A stretch of DNA of 64,000 bases from Schmidtea polychroa. Its lineage: Eukaryota. The translations under genes and the position numbers were made by a program. The notes under the pieces were generated by a model that was given only the letters and a program-made list of their open reading frames with translations, did no database searches and was not told the DNA's origin. The stretch lies in contig CM097885.1 of NCBI GenBank assembly GCA_044892525.1, positions 12,960,001-13,024,000 on the forward strand, read 5' to 3'. Below, piece by piece: positions 27,801 to 45,800 of this stretch. Position 1 is the first letter of the stretch, and every line of letters begins with the position of its first letter.

Positions 27801-30800
27801 AATTAAAACAAAAAATAAAAAATGAAAAATTAAGATATAGAAACCGGAAAAAATAGTAAAATAATAGAAATTAAATAATAAATAAGAAAATAAATAAAAA
27901 ATAAAAGAAAACAGTAAGGAAAACACCAAGAAAACTAATGTTGGGCTGAGTCGGAAATTTAAACGTCGAAAACATAAACTTAGGAAATTTAAACTTAGAA
28001 GGTAAGACAAATAAGATACTAAAGAAAATAAAAACAAAATAAATAACTTAAGAATAAAACGGAACCAGAATAAGAAAAAATAAGAATTAGAAAAATAAGA
28101 ATTAAAACAAAATAAAAAAATAAGAAAATAGAAATAGGAAATAGATCAACCAACAAAAGGAAGGAAATAATGAGGAAGTTAAGAAAATAAATAGAAAACC
28201 ATAATAAAAATAAAGAAAATAAGGGAAAATAATCATAAAACAGAAAAAAAAAAATTAAATAATTAAAATAAGCGGTACTCAAATCTGATTGGTCCGCATA
28301 CACGCAAAAACACTATATATACAGACACAAGACTCATTACATTCACGGTTAATTTCAAATTACTACAGGTAAGATTCAATCGAAAAATTATACTCGGTTA
28401 ATTTCAAATTACTACAGAGACCATCAGGACTCAAGACTCAATTCAGCGCATTCAACAGGAAATCACAATTCAAGGGAAACAGTATCGCATACTACAAAAT
28501 CAACGTTGCAGAGAGATAACTCAAAATTTTCGTCTCAGCTCACAGACTCCAATTTATTAACTGCAGTAAGGCGATTTTTTTTTGATTATTAAATGTTATA
28601 CGTAATTATTTAATGATTAGATTTTTAACTTAAAAAGTTTTCTTCATTTGATTTCCCAGTAATTTATTTACTTATTTAGTTATTTATTTATTTATTTAAA
28701 TAGTTATTTTGTTGTAATGATCATTCGTAAATAAACGATTTATTGTAGTAGTTCATGACTTATGTATAAGACTATTTTATAAAATTTATTGAGACACGTG
28801 GCGTTGAGATGGATGGCGTTCATGACAAGAGGTGCCCTCGGGAGCTCTATCGTTGGACGTACATCGTTTCAATCACGCAGCGAGAATGGGCCGGCAGGTG
28901 AAGGTTTCTTCCCGGGTTCAATCGCTGAGGGCAACCAAAATTTTGATTCAAGTAACAGGAATTTGATCGAAGGAGTAGTTTCAGACTTGTGATAGAATAA
29001 CTATGCGATATACAGTGACTGAGGTGGACACTTTATCTGTTCTTGCTGGGTTACACGACGTGGAGTAGCTCTGGTAAAAGCGCTGTGAGTGTTCAAAAAT
29101 TGAAACCTTCGACGTAACCACTGACTGTATTCTTGGTTCGAGACCGAATTTATGCGAGAGTAGAGGGATAGCGGCCCACTAAACCAGCGGCCCTCTGGGA
29201 CAAAGACATACCCCCTCCCCCTCCCCCCGTCGGTAAGATTTTCAAAAATATTCTAAGTCTAAAAATACATTTTTTTTCAAGGTCAAATTTAAACAAAGAC
29301 ATATGACTCATCAAGGTCATTGAAACAAAGACCATGACTCATCCTATGACTCATCAAATTTCTCAAGGTCATTTAAACAAAGACCATGACTCATCCCATG
29401 ACTCATCAAGGTCATTTTCAAGGTCATATGACTCATAATATGACTCATCAAGGTCATTTTCAAGGTCGTGTGACTCATAATATGACTCATCAAGGTCATT
29501 TTCAAGGTCGCATGGCTCATCCAAGGTCATTCCCAAGGTCATATGAGTCATCGCGATGACTCATCAAGGTCATATTATTATTTTTTAAAAATATTATTAT
29601 TTTTATTATTATTTTTAAAAATATTATTATTTTATTTTAAATTTTTTCAAAATTCCCGCCAACAAAAAATATTAATCGAAAGCTCATTTTAAAGCTCAAT
29701 CCAAGACCTTTCGAATGAGCTATATATCTTGTTATTATTATTATTATTATTATTATTAGTATTATTATTATTATTAGTATTAATCTATATACTCCGAGTC
29801 TAACCGACAAAATATTTTGTCCCCCCATGGGTAATGCTCACAAAGGTACTGCTCACGCTCAACAACTCGCATTCGATTATTTTATTTTTTTAAGGTCATA
29901 TCATTATTTTTCAAAATATTGCGTAATAATAATAATTTTCTTTAAATCGTTGATTATATGATAATATTTTTACTTTTGTTTTAATTATCGATTACTTAAT
30001 AATTTAATTTTGTTTAAATCGTTGATTATATAATAATATTTTTGTTTTTGTTTTAATTATCGATTACTTAATAATTTAATTTTGTTTAAATCGTTGATTA
30101 TATAATAATATTTTTATTTTTGTTTTAATTATCGATTACTTAATAATTTCATTTTGTTTAAATCGTTAATTATATAATAATATTTTTTGTTTTAATTATC
30201 AATTACATAATAATTTCATTTTGTTTAAATCGTTGATTATATTATTTTTTTGTTTTAATTATCGATTACGTTATTTTTTTTTCAAGGTCATATTATTATT
30301 TTTCAAAATATTATTATTTTCAAGGTCATATTATTAATTTTCAAAATATTATTATTTTCAAGGTTATATTATTATTTTTAAAATATTATTATTTTCAAGG
30401 TCATATTATTATTTTTCAAAATATTATTATTTTCAAGGTCATATTATTAATTTTCAAAATATTATTATTTTCAAGGTTATATTATTATTTTTCAAAATAT
30501 TATTATTTTCAAGGTCATATTATTATTTTTTGTTTTAATTATCCATTACTTAATAATTTAATTTTGTTTAAATCGTTGATTATATTATTTTTTTTGTTTT
30601 AATTATCAATTACATAATAATTTCGTTTTATTTAAATCGTTGATTATATCATTTTTTTGTTTTAATTATCGATTATGTTTGTTTAAATTATCGACTATGT
30701 ATTAATTTAATTTTGTTTAAATCGTTGATTATATCATTTTTTTGTTTTAATTATCGATTACGTTTGTTTAAATTATCGATTATGTAATTATTTAATTTAT

Positions 30801-42800: not shown

Positions 42801-45800
42801 AATAATAATAATAATAATAATAATAATAATAATGATAATAATAATAATAATAATAATAATAATAATAATAATAATAATATTAATAATAATAATAATAATA
42901 ATAATAATAATAATAATAATAATAATAATAATAATAATAATATTGATTAAAACTTTGAAAATAATAATAATAATTTTGAAAATAACATCTTCCGCGCGGG
43001 CGTTATTATCTTTCCCAATAATAATAATAAATTAAATTAATACATAGTCGATAATTTAAACAAACATAATCGATAATTAAAACAAAAAAATGATATAATC
43101 AACGATTTAAACAAAACGAAATTATTATGTAATTGATAATTAAAACAAAAAAATAATATAATCAACGATTTAAACAAAATTAAATTATTAAGTAATTGAT
43201 AATTAAAACAAAAAATAATAATATGACCTTGAAAATAATAATATTTTGTAAAGTAATAATATGACCTTGAAAATAATAATATTTTGAAAAATAATAATAT
43301 AACCTTGAAAATAATAATATTTTGAAAATTAATAATATGACCTTGAAAATAATAATATTTTGAAAAATAATAATATGACCTTGAAAAAAAAAATAACGTA
43401 ATCGATAATTAAAACAAAAAAATAATATAATCAACGATTTAAACAAAATGAAATTATTATGTAATTGATAATTAAAACAAAAAATATTATTATATAATTA
43501 ACGATTTAAACAAAATGAAATTATTAAGTAATCGATAATTAAAACAAAAATATTATTATATAATCAACGATTTAAACAAAATTAAATTATTAAGTAATCG
43601 ATAATTAAAACAAAAATAAAAATATTATCATATAATCAACGATTTAAAGAAAATTATTATTATTACGCAATATTTTGAAAAATAATGATATGACCTTAAA
43701 AAAATAAAATAATCGAATGCGAGTTGTTGAGCGTGAGCAGTACCTTTGTGAGCATTACCCATGGGGGGACAAAATATTTTGTCGGTTAGACTCGGAGTAT
43801 ATAGATTAATAGTAATAATAATAATAATAATAATACTAATAATAATAATAATAATAATAATAATAATAATAATAATAATAATAATAATAATAATAATAAT
43901 ACTAATAATAATAATAATAATAATAATAATAATAATAATAATAATAATAATAATAATAATAATAATAATAATAATAATAATAATAATAACAAGATATATA
44001 GCTCATTCGAAAGGTCTTGGATTGAGCTTTAAAATGAGCTTTCGATTAATATTTTTTGTTGGCGGGAATTTTGAAAAAATTAAAAATAAAATAATAATAT
44101 TTTTAAAAATAATAATAAAAATAATAATATTTTTTAAAAATAATAATATGACCTTGATGAGTCATCGCGATGACTCATATGACCTTGGGAATGACCTTGG
44201 ATGAGTCATGCGACCTTGAAAATGACCTTGATGAGTCATATGGCCTTGGGGGGAATTTCAAGGTCATATGAGTCATCTTATGAGTCATGGTCTTTGTTTA
44301 AATGACCTTGAAAATTGTGATGAGTCATCGGATGCGTCATATGGCCTTGAAAATGACCTTGATGAGTCATAGTATGAGTCATATGACCTTGAAAATGACC
44401 TTGGTGAGTCATGGGCTTTGTTTAAATGACCTTGAAAAAATTTTTGTCCTCGATGAGTCATATTATGAGTCATATGTCCTTGAAAATGGCTTTGATGAGT
44501 CATAGGATGAGTCATGGTCTTTGTTTAAATGACCTTGAGAAATTTGATGAGTCATAGGATGAGTCATGGTCTTTGTTTCAATGACCTTGATGAGTCATAT
44601 GTCTTTGTTTAAATTTGACCTTGAAAAAAAATGTACTTTTAGACTTAGAATATTTTTGAAAATCTTACCAACGGGGGGGAGGGGGTATGTCTTTGTCCCA
44701 GAGGGCCGCTGGTTTATTGGGCCGCTATCCCTCTACTTGCGAGAGTTAACCACTAGTCACCCGGAAAATAACTACTTCAATCGATAGCATTATTACTTTC
44801 AATTAAAAACATTATCACAGTAGATAGGAAGAAAATTTTCATTATAAATTAAGACATCATAATACATTTGAGTTAAGTCACGATTGTAAACTTAGCTTTC
44901 TGTCACGTGAACAGTTCCATCGTTGATTTGGTTTTTCATAGTCATCTTTTATTTCATCCTTGAGACTTACTCGCATCTGGTACATCCATCGGCAGAAAGA
45001 GTAAAAATTTCAGACAATAGGAAAAGTCAGACGAAAATCCAGTTTCAGAGAGTGCTGTGCGAATTAACAGACCGTAATATCGTTACGAATTTTTCAACGT
45101 AAAAACGTACAGATAGGTAACATTCAATCCATACTGATAAGATCTATGAGACGATGGATGAGAAATTACCAAATTGGCAGGATAAATCCAATATTTTGTT
45201 AGCTTTACGTACATGCATTGATAAGGGACTAGTTAACTACCACACGCATAGATAAGAACTCATGAGAGAGATAGACTGTGAACACGAGGAGCTTCAATTC
45301 ACACGGCATTATGTCCGATAAATAGTGAGCAAAACGAGCAGCAATGACTATGGGTATCAGATAACAACTCACATGTGGTAGGGCCAAGTGGGTCATTCAC
45401 AAGTATTGATTACCGAGATGAGACAGTAAGGAGATAAGCCACCTGCTCTGCAATTATTCAGCTAAATATGAGACCTCATTTTAAAGTGCAATCATTAAGA
45501 TTAATTTTCCTAAATTACACATTGGAATAAAAACTTATTGCAAACTTTTATATCTGTTTAATCACTGGTCTGATATCACTATATCCAAATGTTGCATGTT
45601 TTCGGTATACTTAGACTGCAAGTTAATACATTTTTTTTCTTTTTGAAACAAGTAACATAAAATGTTGTTAGTGTTAACTCTAAAATTGAACACCGCGATC
45701 GCAAACAATATTAAGAAAATATTAACTCTGAAATCCTCCAAAGTTTTTATAAAAATCGAAACAAATATTTTGTCCATTTTATTGTTGATGCTACTAGTCC

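What the first reader, a model, noticed from the sequence alone, without database searches (positions are those of the whole stretch)
29785..43805. Nine dispersed copies of a palindromic cassette punctuate the fold-back element
Seen: an ~80-100-bp cassette TATATA-CTC(C/T)GAGT(C/T)TATCC-GACAAAATATTTTGTC-CCCCTATGG followed by repeats of GGTACTG. The cores lie at 29806, 32044, 33616, 35101 and 37388 (+) and 36287, 39406, 41335 and 43768 (-), spaced ~1.1-2.4 kb apart. The 16-bp core is a perfect palindrome in five copies, has one mismatch at 39406, and is GACAAGATATTTTCTC in the three central copies. The cassette is conserved while its flanks differ, and one pair sits ~70 bp before the RING ATGs. 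Inference: an element-specific, possibly bidirectional promoter, or an origin/enhancer analogous to baculovirus hr repeats, or a recombination site bound by a dimeric protein.
Basis: partly seen in the sequence, partly recalled or inferred. Interest (0 to 1): 0.8.

Follow-up and report, generated by a model that had tools for sequence, protein, structure and literature searches.

The report
Reused gene-start module in Polinton satellite
The nine repeats are four versions of one directional ~110-base module, multiplied by the mirror-image structure of a defective virus-like Polinton transposon, and the module is likely the shared front end of its accessory genes (TATA-like box, start codon and a predicted short first intron) rather than a palindromic protein-binding site.

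Summary
All nine cores are at the stated places and none lies elsewhere in the window. They sit in a 15,579-bp fold-back element (29159-44737) with Polinton-type ends and a 6-bp target duplication. Mirroring and local duplication reduce nine copies to four types. The palindrome is not the selected feature: no compensatory change, and a palindrome-breaking variant makes up 44-84% of depth in four sequencing runs. The conserved unit is directional: TATATA, ATG 41 nt on (8 of 9), a phase-1 GT (9 of 9), and a T-rich AG|G 57-76 nt later in three of four types. The RING remnant behind type B lacks an ATG for 74 codons, and a natural homologue has ATGG|GTAAGT upstream of an in-phase acceptor. Best reading (0.55): a reused promoter plus start-codon micro-exon. 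Against: weak donors, predicted spliced frames close in 6-9 codons, no spliced read seen, downstream genes decayed. 'About 70 bp before the RING ATG' reflects a deletion in one arm. The scan already found the fold-back family and phase-1 mini-exon leaders on other DNA of this genome; this module was not among notes returned.

The parts
29153..29158 (+). left 6-bp target-site duplication
   Evidence: identical to 44738-44743
29159..44737 (.). 15,579-bp fold-back, non-autonomous Polinton/Maverick-type element
   Evidence: same 9-base terminus starting AGT on both ends, 6-bp TSD, mirrored blocks; no core Polinton gene found
44738..44743 (+). right 6-bp target-site duplication
29159..29782 (+). 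left terminal tract with minisatellites rich in TGACTCA (11) and TCAAGGTCA (8)
43939..44737 (-). right terminal tract, same motifs (17 and 10 in 43800-44737)
29786..29894 (+). cassette A: TATATA 29786, core 29806, ATG 29827, predicted intron 29831-29894 (64 nt); followed by minisatellite, no gene found
43695..43803 (-). cassette A, mirror copy
32024..32145 (+). cassette B: TATATA 32024, core 32044, ATG 32065, weaker acceptor 77 nt after first donor
41249..41370 (-). cassette B, mirror copy; the only copy without ATG at offset 41
33596..33720 (+). cassette C: core 33616, ATG 33637, predicted intron 33656-33720 (65 nt)
39281..39441 (-). cassette C, mirror copy with an expanded repeat tract
35081..35185 (+). 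cassette D1: core 35101, ATG 35122, predicted intron 35126-35185 (60 nt)
36202..36322 (-). cassette D2, pointing outward from the centre; predicted intron 76 nt
37368..37488 (+). cassette D3, pointing outward; 97.6% identical 330-bp inverted copy of the D2 block
40474..41023 (-). RING gene remnant (N-terminal helical part plus C3HC4 RING), frameshifted, no in-frame ATG in the first 74 codons
32198..32553 (+). 3' part of the RING gene in the left arm after a ~489-bp deletion, with a 111-bp tandem duplication

Best explanation
The cassette is a directional module present in four types in a fold-back Polinton derivative, and it is likely a reused gene head: a TATA-like box that host RNA polymerase II would read, a short leader, a start codon, and a predicted phase-1 first intron of host size. 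It would have been duplicated in front of several accessory genes in the ancestral half-element; folding back and a central duplication then turned four into nine. The 15-nt GGTACTG repeats would be tandem donor-like units at the start of the intron, and the 16-bp palindrome would lie over the transcription start without being selected as a palindrome. In this copy the downstream genes are decayed, so the modules are probably relics here. Shown: positions, four types, directionality, spacing, Polinton-type ends, Polinton link of the RING family. Inferred: transcription, splicing, early timing.
For: Geometry: ATG exactly 41 nt after the first T of TATATA in 8 of 9 copies and all 4 types; in two metagenomic Polinton contigs 7 of 18 ORFs of 100 aa or more have a TATAWA box 30-45 nt before the ATG, against 25 of 371 ATGs overall. 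First G|GTA is phase 1 in 9 of 9 (partly shared descent). A pyrimidine-rich AG|G lies 45-85 nt after the first donor in 7 of 9 copies, 3 of 4 types (background 9.4%, p=0.003) or, at a stricter threshold, 5 of 9 and 2 of 4 types (background 4.6%, p=0.012) (thresholds chosen after looking). Planarian short introns peak at 45-85 bp (PMC13594981, passages); the host being a planarian comes from earlier notes, not from my test. The right-arm RING frame has no ATG for 74 codons although family homology starts by codon 27 (E=4e-9 to P0007) and its Gly at codon 2 aligns with Gly2 of P0007, which starts Met-Gly. Natural homologue L001 also has no in-frame ATG there; its only GTRAG in the first 480 nt is ATGG|GTAAGT at 23-32, in phase with a strong acceptor at 436 (chance of ATG before G|GT about 0.017). 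The RING family lies directly before the A32 packaging ATPase in L002, L003 and L005, two of which also carry an rve+chromo integrase. Earlier, unchecked notes report phase-1 mini-exon leaders in Polinton genes of this genome; my idea was noted before that look-up.
Against: Cassette donors (GTACTG, GTAATG) depart from the GTRAGT consensus (established knowledge); only L001 has a canonical donor, and L001 shows no nucleotide similarity to the cassette in the 22 nt it holds upstream. After the predicted acceptor the phase-1 frame closes in 6-9 codons in 7 of 7 A, C and D copies. Type A is followed by minisatellite. Type B has no AG|G in range. The window's RING frame has AGs in all three phases within 8 nt, so its phase match is uninformative. 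DNA after C and D matched no family, and after D stop counts are lower on the opposite strand. No joint across the predicted C intron in any of 4 runs, and a contig of run X8 (RNA only by guess) reads through it unspliced; the D1 intron is not among 15 joints shown of 188. L002 and L005 have an unspliced RING gene with a plain TATA box and no cassette.
Confidence: 0.55

Rival explanations
1. Directional promoter or enhancer module without splicing: TATATA and the downstream block recruit transcription factors, and the ATG, GT and AG matches are incidental.
For: Same location, directionality and TATA spacing evidence; TTTGT at TATA+30 matches the first 5 of 12 letters of the putative planarian initiator (PMC10558129 table S3 header), a weak match; no spliced joint seen.
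Against: Does not explain acceptors at host intron length in 3 of 4 types or the ATG-less RING exon paralleled by L001.
Confidence: 0.15
2. hr-like origin, enhancer or packaging site bound by an element-encoded or host dimer.
For: Dispersed every 1.1-2.4 kb with a palindromic core, as hr repeats have imperfect palindromes (PMC4535591 abstract); core invariant at 14 of 16 positions across four types; conserved in a second organism label (run X13); retained in a high-copy non-coding element.
Against: Core not significantly more conserved than the asymmetric rest (14/16 against 20/29, p=0.28); no compensatory change; palindrome-breaking variant at 44-84%; one palindrome per site, not tandem arrays; Polintons are thought to start replication at their ends (PMC8097293 passages).
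Confidence: 0.13
3. End of an unrelated small transposon or retroposed fragment that entered TA-rich sites of the element.
For: Sharp boundary at TATATA with varied AT-rich flanks; core depth is 19-20 times the C flank in runs X7 and X8, and the commonest variant there is not among the nine, so many copies lie in contexts I could not see. A likeness to Tc1/mariner ends is recalled, untested.
Against: None in 48 kb outside the element; no matching second end or own TSD seen; core-to-flank depth only 4.6 and 5.3 in runs X1 and X13, near the 4 expected from four types (depth is a crude measure).
Confidence: 0.1
4. Recombination site that drives the fold-backs and deletions of the element.
For: Four of 23 block ends lie within 50 bp of a cassette; D copies flank the centre.
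Against: That is what chance gives (3.6 expected); 0 of 23 inside; no spacer-flanking inverted arms beyond the core.
Confidence: 0.04

Closest known systems
Polinton/Maverick elements of animals (PMC8097293, PMC6431247; passages read)
   Same: 6-bp TSD, AG...CT termini, long inverted ends, size in the 12.7-24.6 kb range; RING family shared with contigs that carry A32 ATPase and rve+chromo integrase
   Different: No polymerase, integrase, ATPase or capsid gene; arms mirrored over most of the length; vertebrate core ORFs are described as intronless, and no repeated gene-head module appears in the passages read
Adenovirus E2B mRNAs, where a tiny upstream exon supplies the start codon of pTP and polymerase
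   Same: Start codon on a micro-exon in a protein-primed DNA virus lineage
   Different: One shared exon there; here separate duplicated copies, each with its own TATA-like box
Baculovirus homologous regions (PMC4535591 abstract)
   Same: Dispersed conserved repeats with an imperfect palindrome
   Different: hrs are tandem arrays of 3-8 units acting as origin and enhancer; here single, directional units with ATG and splice-like signals, and no function shown
Shared promoter motifs of PLVs/virophages, e.g. Gezel-14T early motif (bioRxiv 2022.07.28.501842, passages)
   Same: A motif repeated before several genes of a Polinton-related genome
   Different: 8-bp motif read by a helper giant virus; here a ~110-bp homologous block presumably read by the host nucleus

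Membership tests
Polinton/Maverick | 6-bp target-site duplication | tested here: met
Polinton/Maverick | TIRs with repeated AG/AGT end motif | tested here: inconclusive
   ends read AGTAGA, close to but not identical with (AGT)2 or (AG)3 of PMC8097293
Polinton/Maverick | pPolB, integrase, ATPase, capsid genes | tested here: not met
   none in six frames of 32030-41331 or by tblastn of L001-L003/L005 ORFs against the window; hence a non-autonomous derivative, not a full member
Polinton/Maverick | accessory gene shared with autonomous elements | tested here: met
   RING family before A32 ATPase in 3 of 22 loci
Pol II promoter with start-codon micro-exon | TATA-like box at fixed distance before ATG | tested here: met
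   41 nt in 8 of 9
Pol II promoter with start-codon micro-exon | donor and acceptor at host intron length | tested here: inconclusive
   acceptors in 2-3 of 4 types, donors non-consensus
Pol II promoter with start-codon micro-exon | open coding exon after the acceptor | tested here: not met
   closes in 6-9 codons in A, C, D; element is decayed and further mini-exons are possible
Pol II promoter with start-codon micro-exon | capped 5' ends and spliced reads | tested here: inconclusive
   contigs only, RNA by guess; no joint seen
Baculovirus hr | tandem array of palindrome-bearing units | tested here: not met
   one core per site
Baculovirus hr | origin and orientation-independent enhancer activity | not testable with these tools
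   needs assays
Independent MITE/SINE | free copies with own ends and TSD | tested here: inconclusive
   none in the window; genome not held
tRNA-derived or other known ncRNA | tRNA/Rfam match or stable shared fold | tested here: not met
   ARAGORN 0; Rfam only two weak hits in the microsatellites; fold z between -1.7 and +2.0 in 18 of 18

The most novel reading that the evidence does not exclude
This Polinton lineage has a portable early gene head (promoter, start codon and first intron in about 110 bp) that is copied in front of newly captured open reading frames and switches them on. It would be the host-TBP-read counterpart of the TATAAAC box that goes with the element-encoded TBP, and the commoner non-palindromic variant would head the expressed genes of autonomous elements.
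Probability: 0.3. Interest if true: 0.7.

Novelty: new variant of a known kind. Interest (0 to 1): 0.45.

Why it matters
How animal Polintons start transcription is essentially unmapped in the papers I could search. A repeated, homologous gene head gives exact predicted 5' ends and splice junctions that existing planarian RNA, ATAC and PIWI-knockdown data could test (Polintons are derepressed by smedwi-2 RNAi, PMC8532177 passages), and it suggests a simple route by which these elements gain accessory genes. If it is only a relic in a dead satellite, the value is modest.

Tried and rejected
No whole genome is held, so no genome-wide scan. Exact cassette patterns: 0 in viral contigs, 0 in metagenome contigs, 10 in prokaryotic genomes, all lacking the flanking TATATA and GGTACT context, taken as chance. 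RING, ATPase and hexon-like queries found no viral contig. Of 22 metagenome loci I read ORFs of 8 and self-repeats of 8; the cassette was sought in all 22, with no hit better than 12 bp. No RNA holder is on record; depth in X8 was not used as expression evidence. Bidirectional reading or a PSE+TATA (U6-type) reading on the opposite strand: nothing conserved follows TATATA that way and 0 of 9 have an acceptor there (A and B face microsatellite, so the control is lenient); the literature search on flatworm PSEs was not run. tRNA-like Pol III unit, a lead from earlier notes: no tRNA or Rfam match, no B box by eye. Structured RNA: no significant fold. My first idea that D heads an outward-reading ORF was not upheld. 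Gene identity after C and D: no hits; the Atlas gave only sub-0.9 RING hits for P0001. The motif letters occur in no paper of the library; searches listed no paper whose title or abstract describes such a module (most seen as listings only). bioRxiv 2024.03.18.585575 has no hit for intron, promoter, RING, TBP or splic. bioRxiv supplements are closed and Repbase entries were not available; either could describe the module.
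Full report
Observation. The nine 16-bp cores are at the stated coordinates with the stated variants. A 22-mer around the core with up to three mismatches gives nine matches in 64 kb and none in 100 shuffles; a profile search finds no tenth full copy in the window or in 22 related loci.

The host element. 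The mirrored region runs 29159-44737 (15,579 bp), has the same nine terminal bases on both ends starting AGT, and is flanked by a 6-bp duplication. These are Polinton/Maverick hallmarks (6-bp TSD, AG/AGT end motifs, 12.7-24.6 kb; PMC8097293 passages), although the end hexamer is not exactly either vertebrate motif. Six-frame Pfam search of the interior finds only a C3HC4 RING. The family is very abundant in runs of organism A and partly present under a second label. Its RING protein belongs to a family with a shared N-terminal part; in 3 of 22 metagenomic loci the gene stands directly before an A32 ATPase, in two of them followed by an rve+chromo integrase and capsid-like ORFs. So the element is a non-autonomous Polinton derivative. 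Earlier notes describe this fold-back family many times in the same genome and call the host a planarian; I did not test the host assignment.

Nine are four. A, B and C are mirror pairs within mirrored blocks of up to 2 kb; the three D copies lie in duplicated blocks. Between mirror copies the cassette differs no less than its flanks to a significant degree (3.1% against 4.8%, p=0.33). Between types it is 0.86 identical over 45 bp against 0.33-0.49 in flanks, so the module was duplicated on its own before the fold-back. Seven copies point inward and two central D copies point outward.

The palindrome is a side feature. Conservation runs from TATATA to about 37 bp past the core start and is asymmetric. 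The core is not significantly more invariant than the rest (14/16 against 20/29); no pair changes on both sides. In contigs of four runs a single-base change that breaks the palindrome, absent from the nine, makes up 44, 65, 74 and 84% of depth. Core depth is 4.6 and 5.3 times the C flank in X1 and X13 and 19-20 times in X8 and X7, so further copies exist in unseen contexts. Block ends do not coincide with cassettes (0 of 23 inside, 2.2 expected). No stable fold, tRNA or Rfam match.

What the module looks like. ATG lies 41 nt after TATATA in 8 of 9 copies. In L002 and L005, 7 of 18 long ORFs have a TATAWA box 30-45 nt before the ATG, against 25 of 371 ATGs. The first GGTA after the ATG gives a phase-1 GT in all nine; the 15-nt repeat unit keeps that phase where it is intact (A, D1), but not in B, C or D2/D3 second units. 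A pyrimidine-rich AG|G follows at 57-76 nt in A, C and D (3 of 4 types, background 9.4%; 2 of 4 at a stricter cut, background 4.6%), within the planarian short-intron peak of 45-85 bp (PMC13594981 passages). These thresholds were set after inspection.

The RING gene supports a separate start exon. In the right arm the RING frame opens at 41023, about 310 bp from core B, and has no ATG for 74 codons, while homology to P0007 starts by codon 27 and a Gly at codon 2 aligns with Gly2 of P0007. The residue that P0001 lists as Met corresponds to a TTG in the window, which suggests the gene caller found no ATG there either (inference). In L001, the closest genomic homologue, there is likewise no in-frame ATG, and the only GTRAG upstream is ATGG|GTAAGT, in phase with a strong acceptor. 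Earlier unchecked notes report all-phase-1 mini-exon leaders in Polinton polymerase and accessory genes of this genome.

Against. The donors are non-consensus. The predicted spliced frames stop in 6-9 codons in all seven A, C and D copies. A leads into minisatellite. B lacks an AG|G in range. The RING acceptor region offers all three phases. Sequence after C and D is unidentified and not coding-biased on the D strand. No spliced joint was seen at C, and one X8 contig reads through it, but those are contigs of unknown type. L001 does not share the cassette sequence, and L002/L005 use a plain TATA box with an unspliced RING gene, so the module is lineage-restricted.

Verdict. The best reading is a reused promoter plus start-codon micro-exon (0.55); a promoter without splicing (0.15), an hr-like site (0.13), a foreign transposon end (0.10) and a recombination site (0.04) remain. 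It works like a viral early-gene head with a start-codon exon (adenovirus E2B comparison recalled); it fails the hr test of tandem units. I found no description in searches, mostly seen as listings; Repbase and bioRxiv supplements were not visible. Papers read as passages: PMC8097293, PMC10558129 (plus the header of supplementary table S3), PMC8532177, PMC6431247, PMC13594981, PMC12220804, bioRxiv 2022.07.28.501842, 2024.01.15.575659 and 2025.02.07.637071; PMC4535591 as abstract and opening text; bioRxiv 2024.03.18.585575 as a term search only. New variant of a known kind, interest 0.45.

Noticed in passing
L005:430-726: TBP-like ORF (PF00352, E=1e-11) in a metagenomic Polinton contig; TATAAAC-type boxes 32-42 nt before several genes in L002 and L005. 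Matches earlier notes on this genome.
   Followed up: partly
window 29159-30800 and 43000-44737: Minisatellites in the arms carry TGA[CG]TCA (56 strand-matches in the element, 2 outside), TCAAGGTCA (27 against 1) and the first 11 letters of the putative planarian initiator (20 against 3). AP-1 and NR5A-type labels are recalled; counts are inflated by tandem repetition.
   Followed up: partly
window 35122-35172: Read unspliced, the D1 ATG gives a 16-codon basic peptide with a K-G-T repeat that resembles the histone H3 K9 context (recalled, untested); D2/D3 shift out of that frame after 10 codons.
   Followed up: no
L002:190-2729: Polinton contig carries a dual-specificity phosphatase and a TRAF-like gene before the RING gene.
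   Followed up: no
window 46410-47159 and 49981-50739: Two paralogous ORFs of about 250 aa, 41% identical, with no family above cut-off in Pfam or PHROGs.
   Followed up: partly
window 60238-61928: Reverse transcriptase ORF (RVT_1) followed by an overlapping ORF that looks like a Penelope-type endonuclease by eye; 54592-54991 and 63476-63867 are 73% identical inverted copies.
   Followed up: no
window 56059-57075: Intronless diacylglycerol acyltransferase gene (DAGAT).
   Followed up: no
window 18937-20497: Two overlapping GC-richer ORFs (306 and 237 aa) between (AT)n tracts, without a Pfam hit; transposase-like by eye.
   Followed up: no
window 32622-32813 and 33030-33590: A short ORF with a hydrophobic end and a decayed coding-like stretch on the minus strand lie between the RING gene and cassette C; no Pfam hit.
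   Followed up: partly
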